Positions 2,448-8,807 of a DNA stretch of 64,000 nt are shown here, one piece after another (positions within the stretch are counted from its first letter, which is position 1; each line of letters opens with the position of its first letter). The stretch spans positions 197,962 through 261,961 of the forward strand of contig CAVRYV010000012.1 in NCBI GenBank assembly GCA_963725555.1, written 5' to 3'. The position numbers and the translations under genes are program-made. This DNA is from an uncultured Pseudomonadota bacterium. GTDB lineage: Bacteria > Pseudomonadota > Alphaproteobacteria > Rhizobiales > Xanthobacteraceae. The notes under the pieces are model-generated. The model was not told the DNA's origin. It worked only from the letters and a program-made list of their open reading frames with translations, and ran no database searches.

Positions 2448-3725
2448 ATGATCGAACCGATCATGTATCTGGCGATCGGTTTTCTGGTCTCGATGCTGTT
2501 CGGGCTGATGATCGTGCCGCTGGTGCATAACCGCGCGGTGCGGTTGACAACGCGACGCATGGAGGCGGCGACGCCGCTGTCGATGGCCGAAATTCAGGCC
2601 GACAAGGATCAGCTGCGCGCGGAATTCGCCATGTCGGCGCGACGGCTGGAGATGAGCGTCGACCAGCTCAAGAGCAAGACCACCAGCCAGCTCGCCGAAC
2701 TCGGCAAGAAATCCGACGCGATCAATCGCATGAAGATTGAACTTGGCGAGAAGAACGCCACGATCTTTTCGCTCGAAGCCCGCGAAAAGGCGGTCAAGGA
2801 GCAGATGCGGGCCACCGAAGAGGAATTCGTCACCAAGACCGACGCGCTGCGATCCGCCGAACTGGCGCTGGCCGACAAGCAAAGCGAGCTTGCCAAGATC
2901 AATGCCGCCTTGGCGGACCGCTCGCTGATGGCCGAGAGCCGCCAGGTCGAATTGGTGGCGGTGCGCGCCCAGATCGATGCGCTGCAGAACCGCGTTGGCG
3001 ACGCCGAAAAGGAATTTGCCGCCACCCAGACCCGGCTTGAGCAGCAGCGCGGCGAATCCGACGTCGCGACGCGCGAACTCACCGCGGCGCGCGGGCGCGT
3101 CGAGAATCTGAGCCAGCGCGTGACCGATCTCGATCGCCAGCTGATCGCCCAGGTCAAGGAAGCCGAAATGCTCGGCAGCCGCGTCAACGATCTGGAAACG
3201 CGTCTGGCCACGCAGGGCAAGCTGCTCGCCGAACGCGACTATGAAAACAACCAGCTGCGCCAGCAATACGAGGCCGCCCAGCGCGCCGCCAAGGAAGCGC
3301 GCGATGAAATCACCGCCACCAGGAGCGGCAAATCGCCGGCGCTGGAAAAGCTGAAGGCCGAGAAAGCGGCGGCTGAGGAGCAGCTCCGCATCGTGCGCGA
3401 CGAACGCGCCAAATTGCAGCGCGACATCAATACGATTCAGCAGCAGACCGAGAGTTCGTGGGCGACCGAGCGCATGGAAAATGCGCTGCTGCGCGAACGC
3501 ATCAACGATATCGCCGCTGAGGTCGCCAAACTTGCGATGCAGCTCGAAGGGCCGAATTCGCCGATCGAGGCGATGCTGGCCGCCGAACCGGTGATTCCGG
3601 CCAAGGCCCCGCGCGCCAACGGCGCCACCGCCAATGCCGGTATCTCCGAAGGCGGCGGCACCCTCGCCGACCGCATCCGCGCCCTGCAATCCCACGCCTC
3701 CCGCGCGCGTTTGCACCAGGGTTGA
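2448..3725 (+). CDS. Membrane-anchored long coiled-coil protein of unknown function
   Basis: N-terminal TM helix followed by about 300 aa of heptad-like A/E/L/Q/R/K sequence; host-like codon usage. Confidence 0.8.
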   Translation: MIEPIMYLAIGFLVSMLFGLMIVPLVHNRAVRLTTRRMEAATPLSMAEIQADKDQLRAEFAMSARRLEMSVDQLKSKTTSQLAELGKKSDAINRMKIELGEKNATIFSLEAREKAVKEQMRATEEEFVTKTDALRSAELALADKQSELAKINAALADRSLMAESRQVELVAVRAQIDALQNRVGDAEKEFAATQTRLEQQRGESDVATRELTAARGRVENLSQRVTDLDRQLIAQVKEAEMLGSRVNDLETRLATQGKLLAERDYENNQLRQQYEAAQRAAKEARDEITATRSGKSPALEKLKAEKAAAEEQLRIVRDERAKLQRDINTIQQQTESSWATERMENALLRERINDIAAEVAKLAMQLEGPNSPIEAMLAAEPVIPAKAPRANGATANAGISEGGGTLADRIRALQSHASRARLHQG

Positions 3726-3736
3726 GCCAGCGTTTC

Positions 3737-3768
3737 GTAGCCCGGATAAGCGAACCGACATCCGGGAT
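3737..3768. repeat. Short palindromic (REP-like) repeat, GTAGCCCGGAT family
   Basis: gtagcccggataagcgaaccgacatccggg; relatives at 23285-23357 and about 45579-45594. Confidence 0.7.
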
Positions 3769-3847
3769 ATGAACGTCGCGTTGCACGGCTGGCGGCATCC
3801 GAACCACACTGCCTTCGAGATTTCAATTTTAAAGCAGCTTACGTTTG

Positions 3848-3978
3848 GTCGTCCCTGCGAAAGCAGGGACCGATACTCTGTGCCGCCGATGTTCTCGGTG
3901 ATGTCGACATCCTTGTTGCACCGCTGCTTACATGCACATGCGCCGGGGCTTATGGGTCCCTGCTTTCGCAGGGACGAC
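3848..3978. repeat. Bipartite palindromic repeat, GTCGTCCCTGCG family
   Basis: gtcgtccctgcgaaagcagggacc ... gggtccctgctttcgcagggacgac; second copy at 13770-13886. Confidence 0.85.
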
Positions 3979-3988
3979 GAAAGCAAGC

Positions 3989-4018
3989 CGTCATTGCGAG
4001 CGTTAGCGAAGCAATCCA
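3989..4018. repeat. Palindromic repeat, GTCATTGCG...GAAGCAATCCAG family (half copy)
   Basis: gtcattgcgagcgttagcgaagcaatccag; fuller relative at 21519-21607. Confidence 0.7.
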
Positions 4019-4029
4019 GCAGTGCTTCT

Positions 4030-4590
4030 GTCATGCACGCCTAAATTCGAGTGTAGCCACAACTTCGCGATCTCGCCGCGCGTTTCGCGCGAGTTTTGCT
4101 CTGACGTTCCGCCCTCCTCGATCAGAAGGCGCCGTGCTACCCCGAGAAGGGGGCAGGGAATGCCGGACGCCCGAAGCGTCCGCGGCCTCGTGTGCAAAGG
4201 TAGAAAGCACACGAGTTAGAAACCACGGTCACACCGGGATCACCCGGCATTCCCCGCGCAATGGTTTTAACGGTTTCCTTCGTGCTCTCTCCGGTGACCG
4301 GGCTTTGTTGTCACCGTCATCGCTGGAGTTGCCTCCAACAACTTGACGCCAGCGTCGGGGCGTCAAGACCACACGACTTCGCCGTCCGCAAAGCCAAGCG
4401 CCTTCGTCAATGCGCTGCTTGCGTCCACCGCATCCCGCACCCACGTCCGTGACGATCGCGAAACGCCCCTTGTGGATGGGACGGGACGGCTGGGGATGTA
4501 GAGGTGATTTGGGTCAGATGGGAACGGGAATATTTCTGGAATTGAGACTGGACGGCCGAAATCACATTGATCCGCTTCAATAAAACAGCG
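4030..4590. repeat. Long (about 550 bp) highly structured intergenic element
   Basis: Stems at 4156-4166/4244-4254, 4187-4195/4207-4215, 4292-4298/4310-4316 and 4342-4350/4359-4367; no credible ORF; resembles dispersed Bradyrhizobium repeats (from recall); boundaries approximate. Confidence 0.6.
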
Positions 4591-4835: not shown

Positions 4836-4993
4836 TTTTTTTAAGGGGATTCCGAGCCCTACCGGCTTTTTCCCACCATAGGGTCCCATAGAGCAAAGCG
4901 CCCATAGTTAGGCTCCGCCGGGGTTCAAGATGTCGCGATCTTTCACGCTAAAATCTCTCGCCCCGCTACATCGTTGCGTGCAATGATTTGCTC

Positions 4994-6197
4994 ATGCCGA
5001 AAGTAAACCACGATATAATGCGATGGGCGCGCGAGACTGCCGGACTTACGGTCGACCAAGCCGTCGACAAGCTCGGCATCAACGACGCTAGAGGTGTTAT
5101 CGCCTCCGATCGCCTGGCCGCGATTGAGCAAGGTGCAGTCGAGCCGAGCCGACCGCTTCTGTTGAAGATGGCTCAGCAGTACCGGCGCCCATTGGTCGCG
5201 TTCTATATGAGCGCCGTGCCTCAAAAAGGGGATCGGGGGCAAGATTTTCGAAATATTCCTGATCGGCAGTCTGGCGCCGAAACGCTCATCGACGCGCTGG
5301 TTCGAGATATTCGTGCGCGGCAAAGTACGGTTCGCGACGTCCTGATGGACGAAGAAGAGACGAGGCCGCTTCCGTTTATCGGCTCAATGACGATGGCGGA
5401 CGGCGTCGAGACTGTTGTGGAACTTGATTCGACGTACGCTAGCGGTCGATCTCGCAGAATTTCGCGCTCAAAAGTCTCCGGAACTAGCATTCGCACTGCT
5501 TCGTTCAAGAGCCGAAGCCGCAGGCGTGTTCGTTCTGTTGATTGGGAATCTTGGAAGTCACCATACAGCGATAGATGTTGAAGCTTTCCGAGGATTCGCG
5601 CTAGCCGATACCATTGCTCCTTTCATCGTGATTAATGATCAGGACCACCGTTCCGCTTGGTCTTTCACGCTGATACACGAACTGGCGCATTTATGGCTCG
5701 GCACAACGGGGGTGAGCGGCGGGTCCGCTGATGTCCAAATTGAGAGATTTTGTAACGACGTTGCCGCGGCTTTCCTCTTGCCTCGTCCCGAAATCGCCTC
5801 CGTCCAGATCGAACGCGGCGCAGATATCCAAGCTATCGCACAAAAGATCGGCGTGTTCGCTCAAGAACGCCATCTCAGCCGATCCATGGTCGCTTATAAC
5901 CTTGCGAGCGCAGGGCTAATTGCCGAAGAAGCATGGTTGGCCCTGGCGGCTCTCTTTCGGGCGCAGTGGCGGCAAGGTCGTGACGCCCAACGAGAAAAGC
6001 AACGAGACGGGAACGGCCCAAACTATTATGTGGTCCGCAGGCACCGCTTAGGTGCAGCGCTTCTTCATTTCGTTTCGCGCAATATGAGCGAAGGCGCGCT
6101 AACCCCCACAAAAGCTGGGAGGGTGCTCGGCGTGAAGCCGCGTAGCGTCGCGCCGCTACTGAGCCCGGTAAAAACGTCCGGTGGTCGAGCTGCGTAG
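4994..6197 (+). pseudogene. XRE HTH + ImmA/IrrE (M78) Zn-metallopeptidase, split by a +1 frameshift near 5423
   Basis: HTH in ORF 4988..5581; HELAH and ERFCNDVAAAFLLP in ORF 5415..6197; frames join as ETVVE-LIRRTL if one base near 5423 is removed. Confidence 0.85.
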
Positions 6198-6200
6198 CCC

Positions 6201-6716
6201 ATGCTGTACTTGTTGGATGCAAACGTCCTTATCACCGCACACCACCTGTACTACCCGCTAGATAGCGTTCCTGAATTCTGGGCGTGGTTGGCGCATAAAG
6301 GCAGGACGTCCGACCTGAAAATGCCAATCGAGAACTATGAAGAGGTCAAAGATGGCAGCACCGACGAAGAACAGGATCTGCTTTTCGCCTGGATCAGTGG
6401 GGAAGAGACCAAATCCGCTATCTTGTTCGATGAAGAAGCAGACGTAGAACTCGTCGCGCGAGTGATCAACGAAGGGTACGCGCCGGACCTTACCGACGAC
6501 GAAATTGTACAAATTGGCCGCGACCCGTTTTTGATCGCATACGCTCTGGCCTCTCCGAACGATCGATGTGTCGTAACAACGGAAGTGTCGGCATCTCGAA
6601 AGATGAGGCAGAACAGACGCATTCCGGATGTCTGTCGTACGATGGGCGTTCAATGTTGCAACACGTTTGAAATGTCGAGAGCGCTTGGATTCAAGACGGG
6701 TTGGTCGCCCGGATAA
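6201..6716 (+). CDS. DUF4411 family (PIN-like) protein
   Basis: YLLDANVLI, FWAWL, DPFLIAYA, VVTTE, RIPDVC; starts 3 bp after the peptidase stop. Confidence 0.85.
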   Translation: MLYLLDANVLITAHHLYYPLDSVPEFWAWLAHKGRTSDLKMPIENYEEVKDGSTDEEQDLLFAWISGEETKSAILFDEEADVELVARVINEGYAPDLTDDEIVQIGRDPFLIAYALASPNDRCVVTTEVSASRKMRQNRRIPDVCRTMGVQCCNTFEMSRALGFKTGWSPG

Positions 6717-6785
6717 CTGTAGCTGCGGGTATCGTTACTGTTCGAACGGCCCCAAAGGCTCAAGCCTTTTTGGTAATTTCTGTAG

Positions 6786-6845
6786 GCTAGGCAACGCATT
6801 AGACCCGCGAGCAAAGATGAAAGGAACCGATATGCCGAGCGCTAA
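6786..6845 (+). pseudogene. C-terminal remnant of a BrnT-type toxin
   Basis: Frame reads RIRPASKDERNRYAER* and overlaps the brnA start as in brnTA operons; in-frame TAG at 6783 and no start codon. Confidence 0.5.
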
Positions 6846-7125
6846 GAAAAGGGCTGGCTACAGCCAAAAGGATCTGCGCGACGTCAGCGACAGTCCCGAG
6901 CTGACGAAAGCGGACTTCGCCAGGGCCAAGCCATTCGTGGAAGTCTTCCCCGATCTCGCCGCCTCGATCCGAAAAGGGCGTGGCCCAAACAAGGCGCCGA
7001 CAAAAAAGCTGGTGTCGCTGCGCCTCAGCCCCGAGGTGATCGAACATTTCAAGGCGACGGGTGACGGCTGGCAATCGCGGATCGATGAGACCTTGCGCAA
7101 GGTGGTAAAGCGGAAGGCATTTTGA
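6832..7125 (+). CDS. brnA: BrnA (DUF4415) antitoxin family protein
   Basis: SPELTKADFARA, RGPNKAPTKKLVSLRLSPEVIEHFKATGDGWQSRIDETLR. Confidence 0.88.
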   Translation: MPSAKKRAGYSQKDLRDVSDSPELTKADFARAKPFVEVFPDLAASIRKGRGPNKAPTKKLVSLRLSPEVIEHFKATGDGWQSRIDETLRKVVKRKAF

Positions 7126-7145
7126 AGTACTGGCCGATTGGGCTC

Positions 7146-7307
7146 ATGAGGATAAACTCGGGTCCACTCGCCGCTTCACTTTCTTCAGCACAAGCTCGCA
7201 GCCCATGGGACCCGCGCGGATGCTATGAGCACCATGCCCATCTAAGTCACCACAATCGTGACGTTCATCACAAAGCGCATCACGTCCACCACTCCCGTCA
7301 AGCGTAG
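7146..7307 (+). CDS. Possible His-rich micro-protein (53 aa)
   Basis: C-terminus YEHHAHLSHHNRDVHHKAHHVHHSRQA; AQA signal-like site; no clear RBS. Confidence 0.3.
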   Translation: MRINSGPLAASLSSAQARSPWDPRGCYEHHAHLSHHNRDVHHKAHHVHHSRQA

Positions 7308-7403
7308 CACTTAGCGGACACGGCAACATGGATCGCGGCCTGACGCGGCGAGTAGTAACGTCCATCCCCGGACGCGCACTCACCTCAGATGAAAGGCAAC
7401 ATC

Positions 7404-7694
7404 ATGGCTAACGTCGAATATAAATCCGCAGTCTACACCATCGGACCGTCTTCGAGCCAGCAGTTCACCTTCTGGTGGGGACCGCGATCCACGGGAGCAG
7501 AATACTTTGACGTGTCAATCGGAGTCGATCCCCAACTCCGTCGCCAGGGGCAAGCCCCTCTGGTCGAAGAGAAGCGCGCCTATCTTTTGGATGAGAGCGA
7601 AGGCGACACACGCAACGTTCTACTTCTGACGCTGCGCAATGATAATCGTTTCGAAGTCTTTTTCACGGCGAACCACATTCGGATTTCCAACTGA
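7404..7694 (+). CDS. Small beta-rich hypothetical protein (96 aa)
   Basis: AAAGG RBS before ATG 7404; non-repetitive globular-looking sequence ending before a hairpin. Confidence 0.7.
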   Translation: MANVEYKSAVYTIGPSSSQQFTFWWGPRSTGAEYFDVSIGVDPQLRRQGQAPLVEEKRAYLLDESEGDTRNVLLLTLRNDNRFEVFFTANHIRISN

Positions 7695-7723
7695 TGAAAT
7701 CGCTATCTTCGCACCAGAATGAA

Positions 7724-7749
7724 AGAGGCCGCCCACCAGGGCGGCCTCT
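7724..7749. terminator. Hairpin terminator between convergent genes
   Basis: agaggccgccc-acca-gggcggcctct, 11-bp stem; short T-run on the minus strand. Confidence 0.7.
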
Positions 7750-7776
7750 CGCAGGAAGAGATCTTTTGTCTGGTCG

Positions 7777-7963
7777 GTTGCGCGACGGCAGTCCGTCGAC
7801 GTTGTCGATCGTGTCGTGATAGGAGCCATTCCCGAACAGCGGGCTGGAGGGATTGCTGCCGGGAGTCCTGTAGGTGGGGTGAAATCCCGGGAGATCCGCG
7901 AGGTTGAGCCTTCCGCCGCTAACCGAGTTCGTTGGTATTCAGTTCGTGAATGTCGTTTTTCAT
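7777..7963 (-). pseudogene. Double-glycine-leader (bacteriocin/RiPP-like) precursor peptide, frameshifted
   Basis: AGGAGA RBS; MKNDIHELNTNEL, then after a frameshift at about 7924 VSGG-RLNLADLPGFHPTYRTPGSNPSSPLFGNGSYHDTIDNVDGLPSRN; 3' end approximate. Confidence 0.6.
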
Positions 7964-8039
7964 GTCCATCTCCTGCGTTGTTTAGGAAGGGGCCATCCCC
8001 TCTCAATTGGTGGTCGCAGGAGTACGCGGCGCGGTGCGC

Positions 8040-8055
8040 TGTGATCTCCGTCACA
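8040..8055. promoter_or_regulatory. CRP-family binding site
   Basis: Exact TGTGA-TCTCCG-TCACA (TGTGA-N6-TCACA), 77 bp upstream of the GG-peptide ATG. Confidence 0.5.
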
Positions 8056-8205
8056 GTTCAAAAACAGGCCGCCCGCGAAACGGACATCGTCAGACCGGCA
8101 CGTAACGATGACCAGCACGCCGCATGCCGACTTACCGTTTGCAGCACGAGGCCGGCTGATATCTGGAGCTCGGCCGACCGCTTCAAGATAACGCGGAATC
8201 CTTGT

Positions 8206-8652
8206 TTACTTCCGAAGGCGTGCGATAGCGCCGGCAACAATCTGCATCAACACGCCCACGGTCCAGCCCAGCAGAATGATTATTGTCCAGAAAATGTGTA
8301 TCTCCTGGCGCAGCACGATGATTCCGACGGATGAAAAAGCCGACAGCGCCGCAAGAAAGGTGCCGACAGCGCTCAGAAATTCCGCGGAATCGACTTTTGA
8401 GATCGTACCTTCTGCATCATCATGCGGGTGAAACGGGGCTTGCGGCGTGTCGATACCAAGATAAAAGCCGATAACGCCGCCCACCATCATCATCAACAGG
8501 AACCCTTGGGACGTCAGCGCCGGGATACTCGATCCGACGTGGACGCCGACAAACAGGCCGCTTGCCGCGCCGGCCATGGCAAGCCCGATGCGCTCAAGAA
8601 CGTGGGCGAACTTTCTGACGCGTGTTCTCATCGTCTGATTCCACACGATCAA
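8206..8652 (-). CDS. Small multi-pass membrane protein of unknown function
   Basis: Four hydrophobic Gly/Ala-rich helices; host-like codon usage. Confidence 0.75.
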   Translation of the reverse strand: MIVWNQTMRTRVRKFAHVLERIGLAMAGAASGLFVGVHVGSSIPALTSQGFLLMMMVGGVIGFYLGIDTPQAPFHPHDDAEGTISKVDSAEFLSAVGTFLAALSAFSSVGIIVLRQEIHIFWTIIILLGWTVGVLMQIVAGAIARLRK

Positions 8653-8807
8653 CCAAGCAGCGCGTTCTCTCTACCGACTGACGCTCCCGTATTTCTTGAG
8701 CAGATCATTAAACGCCTCCCCCGCCAAGGCGTTCAAGGTGGATCGCGCCCCACCGCCAGCATTCCACGCGCGCGGCGATCTTGAGGGCCCACACGATCCC
8801 GTTGAAT

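What the first reader, a model, noticed from the sequence alone, without database searches (positions are those of the whole stretch)
7777..7974. Hidden double-glycine-leader peptide gene (bacteriocin/RiPP-like), missed by the ORF track
Seen on the minus strand: AGGAGA RBS, then MKNDIHELNTNEL, one leftover G, then in the next frame VSGG. A small deletion in a canonical ELxxxELxxVSGG leader explains this. The core after GG is RLNLADLPGFHPTYRTPGSNPSSPLFGNGSYHDTIDNVDGLPSRN, rich in P/G/S/N/D, and a CGA there may be a mutated TGA just before the terminator. Established: GG leaders are cleaved and exported by C39-peptidase ABC transporters (PCAT). No transporter or modifying enzyme is adjacent, so it would be served in trans. 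Inference: a member of an undescribed family of dispersed secreted peptides.
Basis: partly seen in the sequence, partly recalled or inferred. Interest (0 to 1): 0.7.

Follow-up and report, generated by a model that had tools for sequence, protein, structure and literature searches.

The report
Broken double-glycine leader peptide gene

Summary
On the minus strand, AGGAGA and ATG (7963) give MKNDIHELNTNELG-stop, and VSGG plus a 42-codon core follow in the +1 frame. Intact homologues exist, 58-65 aa long, from soil, peat and litter metagenomes (e.g. MDMKNDIHELNTNELSAVSGG|RLNLADLPGFHPTYRTPGSNPSSPLFGNGSYHDTIDNVDGLP). Against them the window allele lacks 5 nt in the leader and has the TAG stop changed to TCG at 7783-7785. 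The same frameshifted allele occurs in contigs of four differently labelled organisms, so it is a fixed pseudogene and not an assembly error. The family is rare: 11 clusters among 5.8 billion proteins and 1 of 185,579 species genomes. Its core is under strong purifying selection (dN/dS 0.02-0.31), and it fits the PCAT leader consensus and TIGR01847. Each gene is a self-contained cassette: a CRP-type TGTGA-N6-TCACA box about 90 nt upstream, a 5'-UTR hairpin, RBS, leader, core and terminator. It often sits in tandem arrays with unrelated GG-leader peptides. One distant member lies next to an NHLM-type bacteriocin export ABC subunit (TIGR03797). The peptide's function is unknown. The kind is ordinary, the family is uncurated, and this copy is dead.

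The parts
8040..8055 (-). CRP/CAP-type palindrome TGTGACGGAGATCACA (TGTGA-N6-TCACA), presumed operator of the peptide gene
   Evidence: Only perfect match in the 64-kb window. GTGA-N6-TCAC is invariant and centred about 80-94 nt upstream of the peptide ATG in nearly all related loci, and is the only match in each 20-kb locus L001, L002, L010. Consensus per PMC10187061.
8034..8035 (-). Site where the window lacks 6 nt (AAACGA) present in the window-type and L001 intact alleles between the box and the -10-like hexamer (L002 and L010 have AAATGA/AAACGA at that place)
   Evidence: reads of intact alleles show TTCGTT put in behind 8034. Effect on the promoter is inferred only; small intergenic indels also occur elsewhere nearby.
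8021..8026 (-). -10-like hexamer CGTACT (CATACT / AATATT in other cassettes); it implies a start site near 8014
   Evidence: Cassette alignment A5. Not mapped experimentally, and the identity of the hexamer is ambiguous.
7986..8002 (-). 5'-UTR hairpin GAGGGG-AUGGC-CCCUUC; the window's extra C (7992) lies in the loop
   Evidence: Conserved in 10 cassettes carrying different cores; 6 pairs, one with a compensatory change. Modest structural evidence.
7969..7974 (-). Ribosome-binding site AGGAGA
   Evidence: CAGGAGA/CAGGGGA conserved in all cassettes.
7919..7963 (-). Remnant leader ORF MKNDIHELNTNELG-stop (ATG 7963, TAG 7921-7919)
7923..7924 (-). Frameshift lesion: net 5-nt gap. Intact alleles read CTC AGC GCC GTT; the window reads CTC G GTT
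   Evidence: alignment. Intact metagenome contigs show GG+GCT put in at 7923/7924. The gap is present in contigs of X1, X9, X5, X25, X26. It is the only indel inside a coding sequence in about 2.7 kb compared with L004.
7912..7923 (-). VSGG codons (end of leader, cleavage site after GG), now in the +1 frame
   Evidence: GG invariant in 18 family members.
7786..7911 (-). 42-codon core RLNLADLPGFHPTYRTPGSNPSSPLFGNGSYHDTIDNVDGLP, still identical in amino acids to the core of intact P0001
   Evidence: (4 synonymous, 0 nonsynonymous differences to L003).
7783..7785 (-). Former stop codon: TAG in the window-type and L001 intact alleles (TGA at that place in L002), TCG here
   Evidence: RNA and DNA contigs of intact alleles show G>T at 7784 on the + strand. 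X1 contig carries the window state.
7718..7750 (-). Intrinsic-terminator-like hairpin (12-bp stem 7750-7723) followed by UUUCAUU
   Evidence: dG -36.8 kcal/mol, z -3.1. Conserved with G-U-compatible changes in the window-type loci L003-L009, and the same type of terminator follows the L012 family gene. One metatranscriptome read starts exactly at 7722.

Best explanation
Window 7718-8055 (minus strand) is a recently inactivated allele, a pseudogene, of a small conserved gene family that encodes 58-65-aa precursor peptides with a canonical double-glycine (GG) leader. What is shown: in intact relatives the gene is a self-contained cassette. It has a CRP/CAP-type box TGTGA-N6-TCACA, a -10-like hexamer, a 5'-UTR hairpin, an AGGAGA RBS, a ~19-23-aa leader with L(-12), E(-8), L(-7), V(-4), G(-2), G(-1), a 42-aa core and a terminator hairpin. 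What is inferred: a CRP/FNR-family activator bound at a class II-like position switches the gene on. The leader's helix (-10 to -4) then docks on the C39 peptidase domain of a peptidase-containing ABC exporter encoded elsewhere. The most likely exporter is the NHLM-type three-gene system (TIGR03796 with peptidase, TIGR03797 without, TIGR03794 HlyD-like). The leader is cut after GG, and an acidic, Pro/Gly/Asn/Ser/Asp-rich, unstructured 4.5-kDa peptide is released outside the cell. There it probably acts together with the amphipathic or hydrophobic GG-leader peptides it is often arrayed with, as a bacteriocin-like or signalling peptide set. In the window's lineage a net 5-nt deletion in the leader shifts the frame, and even a read-through would put L(-7) and L(-12) two residues out of register. 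The TAG stop has become TCG. A 6-nt loss between box and promoter may also have disabled transcription. The core has no amino-acid change yet, so the inactivation is recent.
For: Intact homologues and their sequences. Exact lesions by DNA alignment to nine intact alleles. The same frameshifted allele in independent public runs: organism A X1 identical 7767-8100; organism B X9 7807-8046; X5 7896-7990; organism C X25 7893-8058, then divergent; organism D X26 7896-8046. Intact alleles in soil metagenomes and four metatranscriptomes. Purifying selection on the core, dN/dS 0.02-0.31; window core 4 syn / 0 nonsyn against L003. Leader: TIGR01847 17.4 bits against cut-off 15.7 for P0001; consensus and helix -10..-4 from PMC6959990; AlphaFold's only helix is residues 12-18, which equals -10..-4. 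Box conserved about 80-94 nt upstream of the ATG in more than 20 loci, and before other peptide genes of the arrays. Arrays of GG-leader peptides. Exporter link: the L032 family member lies ~210 nt from an ABC exporter scoring 727 bits on TIGR03797 (cut-off 709.4); system described in PMC2887384. Flanking genes (101, 148, 232 aa) are intact in the window at 96-99% aa identity.
Against: No PCAT or any ABC ATPase signature in the 64-kb window, and none within +/-10 kb of the family gene in L001, L002 or L010. The single transporter link concerns a 48%-identical member and an ORF cut by the contig end, so no C39 domain was seen. The transcription start is not mapped, and one metatranscriptome read (7925-8063) runs upstream through the box, which does not fit a start near 8014 unless it is read-through or contaminating DNA. 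The core is hydrophilic and anionic (GRAVY -0.66, charge -2), unlike typical membrane-active class II bacteriocins, and no conserved immunity gene accompanies it. Logan contig depths are low (2-3.4), and X1 may be the very data the window was assembled from. The 6-nt and 1-nt upstream differences may be neutral polymorphisms.
Confidence: 0.82

Rival explanations
1. The gene is intact in the organism, and the 5-nt gap and the TCG codon are sequencing or assembly errors of this one genome.
For: Small indels are a common assembly error. Logan contig depth over the locus is low (2-3.4).
Against: Two independent lesions plus two upstream indels. The identical gapped allele is found in contigs from four differently labelled organisms and studies (X1, X9, X25, X26) and in X5. 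Organism C is truncated further at 7893.
Confidence: 0.03
2. The frameshifted allele is still functional through programmed +1 ribosomal frameshifting at CTC GGT TAG.
For: An in-frame stop directly after the shift site, with the downstream frame at +1, superficially recalls prfB-type +1 frameshift sites (own knowledge). The core is still free of amino-acid changes.
Against: About 30 intact relatives need no frameshift. GGU to GUU re-pairing is poor. The product would read ...NELGSGG, with L(-7) and L(-12) displaced by two residues, positions shown to be essential for PCAT binding (PMC6959990). The stop codon is also lost, adding more than 40 residues through the terminator. Organism C has lost most of the core.
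Confidence: 0.02
3. Function of the intact family: the mature peptide is itself an antibacterial class II microcin-like toxin, or one component of a multi-peptide bacteriocin.
For: GG leader. Tandem arrays with hydrophobic, Gly-rich or amphipathic GG-leader peptides typical of class II bacteriocins and microcins. A partner peptide gene lies 30 nt downstream in L001, L011, L016, L024. Small membrane-protein genes lie upstream in three contexts (window 148 aa, L012 62 aa, L020 64/86 aa). An NHLM 'bacteriocin export' ABC subunit is adjacent in L032.
Against: The core is hydrophilic, acidic and predicted unstructured. There is no conserved immunity gene. The core is far more conserved than is usual for toxins in an arms race. 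The gene often stands alone.
Confidence: 0.35
4. Function of the intact family: the peptide is an extracellular signal (pheromone or inducer) or a matrix component rather than a toxin, as with the GG-leader inducer peptides of Gram-positive bacteriocin loci or the EbfG peptides of Synechococcus.
For: Very strong conservation of the C-terminal 20 residues (SPLxGxxS[FY]xDTIDNxxxLP) fits recognition by a receptor. The core is hydrophilic. There is a shared regulatory box on all peptide genes. Precedent: tandem GG-motif peptides exported by an unlinked PCAT with a non-antibiotic role (PMC4997328). Histidine kinases adjoin the gene in L011, L016/17 and L035.
Against: The adjacent kinases are only generically related (23-26% identity over the kinase core), so linkage is probably chance. 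No receptor was identified. Pheromones usually diversify into pherotypes, whereas this core is nearly invariant.
Confidence: 0.25
5. Function of the intact family: the peptide is a RiPP precursor modified by enzymes encoded elsewhere. This includes the specific idea of a tyrosine-sulfated RaxX/PSY-like plant-hormone mimic.
For: NHLM-type exporters serve RiPP precursors, which can lie far from their enzymes (PMC2887384). The window core T-Y-R-T-P-G-S-N-P shares Y-x-x-P-G-x-N-P with RaxX D-Y-P-P-P-G-A-N-P-K-H-D-P (PMC4646787). RaxX is a GG-leader peptide exported by a PCAT in a plant-associated bacterium (PMC6637879).
Against: No modifying enzyme appears in any of about 12 contexts. There are no Cys residues. 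RiPP precursor models score below their cut-offs. For RaxX/PSY: there is no Asp before the Tyr and no KHDP. The stretch is the least conserved part of the core, and the Tyr is Phe, Ile or Trp in L010, P0014 and P0017.
Confidence: 0.12

Closest known systems
Class II microcins and unmodified class II bacteriocins with double-glycine leaders (e.g. microcin V / CvaC with the CvaAB exporter)
   Same: Short precursor; leader with L(-12)xxxE(-8)L(-7)xxxxGG; small Cys-free Gly/Ser-rich core; Gram-negative host; tandem peptide genes in some loci.
   Different: No linked exporter or immunity genes. The core is hydrophilic, acidic and Pro/Asn/Asp-rich, not hydrophobic. There is no sequence similarity of the core to any curated bacteriocin family. 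Activity is untested.
NHLP / Nif11-type precursors and their three-gene NHLM export system (TIGR03794/03796/03797; Haft et al. 2010, PMC2887384)
   Same: GG-type cleavage site. Precursor genes occur as paralogous families, often far from the transporter. One family member (L032) lies beside a TIGR03797 equivalog.
   Different: The leader here is the short classical ~20-aa type, not the long nitrile-hydratase-like or Nif11-like domain. No cyclodehydratase or lanthionine synthetase is nearby. The core lacks Cys.
Synechococcus elongatus EbfG1-4 small GG-motif proteins exported by the unlinked PCAT PteB (PMC4997328)
   Same: Tandem array of small GG-motif peptide genes in a Gram-negative bacterium; exporter encoded elsewhere; function not antibiotic.
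   Different: No sequence relationship. A role in biofilm or matrix is not indicated by anything found here.
RaxX sulfated peptide of Xanthomonas with the RaxB PCAT (PMC4646787, PMC6637879)
   Same: ~60-aa precursor with a GG leader, Pro-rich hydrophilic mature peptide, local resemblance Y-x-x-P-G-x-N-P.
   Different: Lacks the D-Y sulfation context and the KHDP motif. The Tyr is not invariant in the family. No raxST, raxA or raxB neighbours. The conserved part of this family is the C-terminus, not the PSY-like stretch.
Class II CAP/CRP-dependent promoters (TGTGA-N6-TCACA overlapping the -35 region); the alphaproteobacterial precedent is CgrA of Rhodospirillum centenum (PMC10187061)
   Same: Perfect or near-perfect CAP-type palindrome at a fixed distance upstream of every peptide gene. 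The spacing to the -10-like hexamer is compatible with a class II position.
   Different: The regulator is unidentified, its ligand is unknown and the start site is not mapped. S. meliloti Clr recognises a different motif.

Membership tests
Double-glycine (GG) leader peptides, substrates of C39 peptidase-containing ABC transporters | Leader consensus L(-12)xxxE(-8)L(-7)xxxxG(-2)G(-1) (PMC6959990) | tested here: met
   Intact relatives such as P0001 ...HELNTNELSAVSGG have L-12, E-8, L-7, V-4, G-2, G-1. The window allele itself does not: the frame is broken and the spacing is shortened by two residues.
Double-glycine (GG) leader peptides, substrates of C39 peptidase-containing ABC transporters | Score at or above the curated cut-off of TIGR01847 (bacteriocin_sig) | tested here: met
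   P0001 scores 17.4 bits against cut-off 15.7. P0010 (15.5) and P0011 (14.7) fall just below; P0006 and P0008 have no hit.
Double-glycine (GG) leader peptides, substrates of C39 peptidase-containing ABC transporters | Two-turn helix at positions -10 to -4 that docks on the peptidase domain | tested here: inconclusive
   AlphaFold's only helix is residues 12-18 of P0001, which equals -10 to -4, but the model is low-confidence (mean pLDDT 54.8).
Double-glycine (GG) leader peptides, substrates of C39 peptidase-containing ABC transporters | A cognate C39-peptidase ABC transporter in the same genome | not testable with these tools
   No ABC ATPase in the window, and none within +/-10 kb in L001, L002, L010. 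Indirect support: L032 has a TIGR03797 ABC subunit beside a distant member.
Double-glycine (GG) leader peptides, substrates of C39 peptidase-containing ABC transporters | Cleavage after GG coupled to export | not testable with these tools
   Needs expression and mass spectrometry.
Class II microcin / class II bacteriocin gene cluster | Precursor linked to immunity gene and exporter genes (PCAT plus membrane-fusion protein) | tested here: not met
   Neighbours differ between the window-type, L001/L011, L002, L010, L012, L016 and L020 contexts. Only the peptide cassette is shared.
Class II microcin / class II bacteriocin gene cluster | Hydrophobic, amphipathic or Gly-rich membrane-active core | tested here: not met
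   Family core has GRAVY -0.66, net charge -2, 55% P/G/N/S/D and is predicted disordered. Its array partners do fit (GRAVY +0.16 to +0.71).
Class II microcin / class II bacteriocin gene cluster | Antibacterial activity | not testable with these tools
   Needs a bioassay.
RaxX / PSY sulfated-tyrosine peptides | Asp-Tyr sulfation site followed by xxPxxNPKHDP; linked sulfotransferase raxST | tested here: not met
   The core has T-Y-R-T-P-G-S-N-P-S-S-P: no Asp and no KHDP. The Tyr is replaced in L010, P0014 and P0017. No sulfotransferase appears in any context (Pfam lists).
RiPP precursor families with curated models (CCRG-2, ATP-grasp target, CTB bacteriocin, lactobin/cerein 7B) | Score above the curated cut-off and an adjacent modifying enzyme | tested here: not met
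   All hits are below their cut-offs and confined to the leader. No modifying enzymes are nearby.
CAP/CRP-type operator (class II activation) | Palindrome TGTGA-N6-TCACA conserved at a fixed position overlapping the -35 region | tested here: met
   Perfect site at window 8040-8055. GTGA-N6-TCAC lies about 80-94 nt upstream of the ATG in more than 20 loci and is the sole match in three 20-kb loci. The position relative to the start site is inferred from a -10-like hexamer only.
CAP/CRP-type operator (class II activation) | Binding by, and dependence on, a CRP/FNR-family regulator | not testable with these tools
   No such regulator was found among the window ORFs scanned. L010 has a cNMP-binding-domain neighbour without a detectable HTH.

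The most novel reading that the evidence does not exclude
The family and its array partners form a previously unrecognised regulon of PCAT-exported peptides in soil Bradyrhizobium-like alphaproteobacteria. Every peptide gene would carry the same portable cassette (CAP-type box, UTR hairpin, GG leader), all switched on together by one cyclic-nucleotide-type regulator. Within it, the hydrophilic peptide with the nearly invariant C-terminus (...SPLFGNGSYHDTIDNVDGLP) would not be a toxin. It would be a conserved extracellular signal or targeting/uptake component, conceivably directed at a host or partner organism. Its repeated loss in cultured strains would reflect relaxed need outside the native community.
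Probability: 0.12. Interest if true: 0.7.

Novelty: new member of a known kind. Interest (0 to 1): 0.36.

Why it matters
Peptide genes this small are routinely missed, and a frameshifted one is invisible to gene callers, so this case shows that sequence reading can recover them. The copy in this window is dead and has no physiological role. The family it points to may be worth a modest follow-up. It is a rare, strongly constrained, uncurated GG-leader peptide with an atypical hydrophilic core. It is expressed in soils, packaged in a recognisable regulatory cassette, and arrayed with bacteriocin-like peptides. That gives a simple handle (box + hairpin + GG leader) for finding the complete secreted-peptide repertoire of these soil and plant-associated alphaproteobacteria, and for testing whether they use peptide bacteriocins or peptide signals. 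Very little has been described on this for that group.

Tried and rejected
- **Rfam** on 7000-8800 gave only chance-level hits, so this is not a known RNA.
- **Pfam** on the read-through peptide gave nothing.
- **Plasmid collection** DNA search found no match for the locus. A 24-kb piece of the window only hit metabolic genes at 72-80% identity in Bosea, Terrarubrum and Azospirillum plasmids. The genus guess 'Bradyrhizobium' therefore could not be verified.
- **Suspected broken ABC transporter** at window 3600-4500, suggested by tblastn cross-hits to an L002 ABC gene: rejected. There is no ABC domain, only coiled-coil or compositional matches.
- **Other GG-leader micro-ORFs or ABC signatures** in the window: none.
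- **Conserved neighbour genes** (immunity or modification): none are shared between contexts.
- **RaxX/PSY mimicry:** the resemblance is limited to YxxPGxNP in the least conserved stretch.
- **Histidine-kinase linkage:** the kinases are only generically related.
- **Structure:** AlphaFold confidence was too low (pLDDT 54.8) to justify a fold search.
- **First pattern search of the loci** used the wrong spacer (N8) and found nothing; corrected.
- **Literature:** searches for the core motifs found nothing, and searches for GG peptides in Bradyrhizobium found nothing specific to this family.
Full report
**Observation**

On the minus strand, AGGAGA (7974-7969) is followed by ATG at 7963. This frame reads MKNDIHELNTNELG and stops at TAG 7921-7919. 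One base further on, GTT AGC GGC GGA (VSGG, 7923-7912) opens a frame that encodes RLNLADLPGFHPTYRTPGSNPSSPLFGNGSYHDTIDNVDGLP (7911-7786). That frame then continues as SRNRPDKRS... through a strong hairpin. The core frame has GC3 of 0.80, like the longer, GC-rich coding genes of this 62%-GC window (0.79-0.83) and above its immediate low-GC neighbours (0.60-0.68). The hairpin has a 12-bp stem at 7750-7723 followed by UUUCAUU, with dG -36.8 kcal/mol and z -3.1.

**Intact relatives**

A search with the read-through peptide found 11 protein clusters of 58-65 aa, with E-values from 4e-30 to 2e-15. Almost all come from metagenomes, and some are auto-named "bacteriocin-like protein". All read M...ELxxV(S/T/V)GG, then the core, and all end at ...DGLP.

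DNA alignment of the window with nine intact alleles shows two disabling differences:

- **Frameshift in the leader.** Intact alleles have CTC AGC GCC GTT where the window has CTC G GTT.
- **Lost stop codon.** The stop directly after GLP is TAG in the closely related intact alleles and TCG in the window (7785-7783).

Two further differences lie upstream. Six nucleotides are missing at 8034/8035, and there is an extra C at 7992.

**The lesions are not an artefact**

Logan contigs match the window exactly, gap included, in five runs:

| Run | Label | Exact match to window | Note |
|---|---|---|---|
| X1 | organism A | 7767-8100 | covers both lesions |
| X9 | organism B | 7807-8046 | covers the 5-nt gap |
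| X25 | organism C | 7893-8058 | then diverges inside the core, a further truncation |
| X26 | organism D | 7896-8046 | covers the 5-nt gap |
| X5 | unlabelled | 7896-7990 | covers the 5-nt gap |

Soil metagenomes (X3, X27) and four soil or litter metatranscriptomes (X21-X24) carry the intact states at the sites their contigs cover.

Over about 2.7 kb shared with L004 at 95.7% identity, the 5-nt gap is the only indel inside a coding sequence. The flanking 101-, 148- and 232-aa genes remain full length at 96-99% amino-acid identity.

The window core still encodes exactly the P0001 core, with 4 synonymous and 0 nonsynonymous differences to L003. I conclude that this is a recent pseudogene, fixed in a clade of strains.

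**The family is real, constrained and rare**

- Nei-Gojobori dN/dS for the 42-codon core is 0.02-0.31 between divergent alleles. L003 against L001, for example, has 12 synonymous changes and 1 nonsynonymous.
- An exhaustive profile search of 1.84 billion cluster representatives found only 14 hits. About ten are true members, three are repeat proteins that match only the leader, and two share only the leader and the start of the core.
- Only one of 185,579 species-representative genomes carries the family, an uncultured alphaproteobacterial MAG (L010).
- A metagenome scan added 14 loci.
- The hallmark across 18 sequences is the GG leader plus a C-terminus SPLxGxxS[FY]xDTIDNxxxLP.
- No Pfam or NCBIfam model covers the core, and no paper in the searched library contains its motifs.

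**Leader**

P0001 passes the curated cut-off of TIGR01847 (17.4 bits against 15.7). It also fits the published PCAT-substrate consensus L(-12)xxxE(-8)L(-7)xxxxG(-2)G(-1). Positions -7 and -12 of that consensus are needed for binding to the peptidase domain, and -10 to -4 form a docking helix (PMC6959990). AlphaFold's only predicted helix, residues 12-18, is exactly -10 to -4. The core is predicted unstructured, and the model confidence is low (mean pLDDT 54.8). In the window, even a hypothetical +1 read-through would place both leucines two residues out of register.

Upstream of the gene lies TGTGACGGAGATCACA (8055-8040). It is the only perfect CAP-type TGTGA-N6-TCACA in the window. GTGA-N6-TCAC is invariant in the aligned upstream regions. 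It is the sole match in each of the 20-kb loci L001, L002 and L010. Its centre lies about 80-94 nt upstream of the ATG in more than 20 loci.

The same box, spacer, -10-like hexamer (CGTACT, CATACT or AATATT), GAGGGG..CCCUUC hairpin and CAGGAGA RBS precede other, unrelated GG-leader peptide genes in the arrays. The hairpin has 6 pairs and only one compensatory change, so the structural evidence is modest.

The spacing fits a class II CRP-type activator site (PMC10187061), but the transcription start is not mapped. One RNA read runs upstream through the box. The window's 6-nt gap shortens the spacing between box and promoter and may have silenced the gene. That is inference only, because small intergenic indels are common here. 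The extra C lies in the hairpin loop.

**Genomic context**

In close relatives of the window (L003-L009, L022, L023) the gene is solo. It sits between a 141/148-aa membrane protein gene and a convergent 101-aa gene.

Elsewhere it is part of peptide arrays:

- L001, L011, L016 and L024 have a second GG-leader gene 30 nt downstream, with core WDLFSMAKAAASLADKVA(R/H)V(I/L)TGTN.
- L012 and L020 have other amphipathic partner peptides.
- L016-L019 carry five GG-leader genes in a row, with similar leaders and unrelated cores.
- L027 has a second, related peptide with its own box.

No neighbouring protein gene is shared between contexts.

**Exporter**

No ABC ATPase is encoded in the window or within 10 kb of the gene in L001, L002 and L010. 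In L032, however, a 48%-identical member lies about 210 nt from a convergent TMD+NBD ABC exporter. That ORF scores 727 bits on TIGR03797 (NHLP bacteriocin export ABC subunit), against an equivalog cut-off of 709.4, even though the contig end cuts off its N-terminus. TIGR03797 works with TIGR03796, the C39-peptidase subunit, and TIGR03794, an HlyD-like protein, to export GG-cleaved precursors that are often encoded far away (PMC2887384). This is the best candidate for the exporter acting in trans. It rests on one locus.

**Function of the mature peptide**

The mature peptide is 42 aa and 4.5 kDa, with pI 5.2, net charge -2 and GRAVY -0.66. P, G, N, S and D make up 55% of its residues, and it has no Cys. 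It does not look like a membrane-active bacteriocin, whereas its array partners do.

My ranking of possible functions:

| Possible function | Confidence |
|---|---|
| Component of a bacteriocin-like multi-peptide set | about 0.35 |
| Extracellular signal or matrix peptide | about 0.25 |
| RiPP precursor modified in trans | about 0.12 |

The local resemblance to RaxX/PSY (YxxPGxNP) fails the defining features and falls in the least conserved stretch. Histidine kinases next to the gene in three contexts are only generically related.

**Verdict**

The locus in this window is a dead copy. The family is a new, uncurated member of a well-known kind. Its added points of interest are the portable CAP-box cassette, the arrays, the unusual hydrophilic and nearly invariant core, and expression in soils. 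Interest is moderate to low for this window and moderate for the family.

Noticed in passing
window 7257-7272 (+), upstream of ORF 7389-7694 (+): A second CRP-type box (CGTGACGTTCATCACA; GTGA-N6-TCAC exact) lies about 125 nt upstream of the convergent 101-aa gene, which has no Pfam or NCBIfam match. These are the only two such boxes in 64 kb, and they flank the peptide locus, which suggests co-regulation. The box is conserved in L003-5, L007 and L008, but those are close relatives.
   Followed up: partly
window 4988-6716 (+): An HTH_31 ORF (4988-5581) and an IrrE/Peptidase_M78 ORF (5415-6197) overlap in different frames, so they probably form one frameshifted XRE-IrrE gene. A DUF4411 (PIN-like) gene follows at 6201-6716, then a BrnA-antitoxin-domain ORF at 6628-7125. 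This looks like an island of defence or toxin-antitoxin-type genes, some possibly decayed.
   Followed up: no
L016 690-1858 (also L017-L019): Five consecutive GG-leader peptide genes with similar leaders (…NELDA[VI]SGG) and unrelated cores. Two CAP-type boxes are present: one before the first gene and one before the fifth.
   Followed up: partly
L032 717-2342 (-): An ABC exporter matching TIGR03797 (NHLM bacteriocin export subunit) above its equivalog cut-off lies beside a divergent family member that carries a 35-aa C-terminal extension after ...NLP. The contig ends before any C39 partner could be seen.
   Followed up: partly
L010 10257-10895 (-): A 212-aa protein with a cyclic-nucleotide-binding domain (no detectable HTH) lies convergent to and adjacent to the family gene. 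It is a weak hint towards the ligand class of the regulator that binds the box.
   Followed up: partly
window 7893 (run X25, organism C): Organism C shares the frameshifted allele, but its contig diverges into unrelated sequence at 7893, inside the core. This is a further deletion or rearrangement of the pseudogene.
   Followed up: no
window 7719-7749 and 7988-8005 (run X1, a 1012-nt contig): A separate contig of organism A matches only the terminator hairpin and the 5'-UTR hairpin, about 232 nt apart. Its loose end resembles the L012-type cassette. This is probably a paralogous peptide cassette elsewhere in the same genome. X26, X27 and X28 show similar extra cassettes.
   Followed up: partly
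L011 1723-3696, L016 2015-2602, L035 69-1319: Histidine-kinase genes adjoin the family gene in three independent contexts, but they share only 23-26% identity over the kinase core. The adjacency is probably coincidental.
   Followed up: yes
window 8070-8086 (-): A terminator-like hairpin plus T-run lies directly upstream of the CAP-type box. It probably ends the transcription unit of the 148-aa membrane-protein gene, so the peptide gene would be an independent unit.
   Followed up: no
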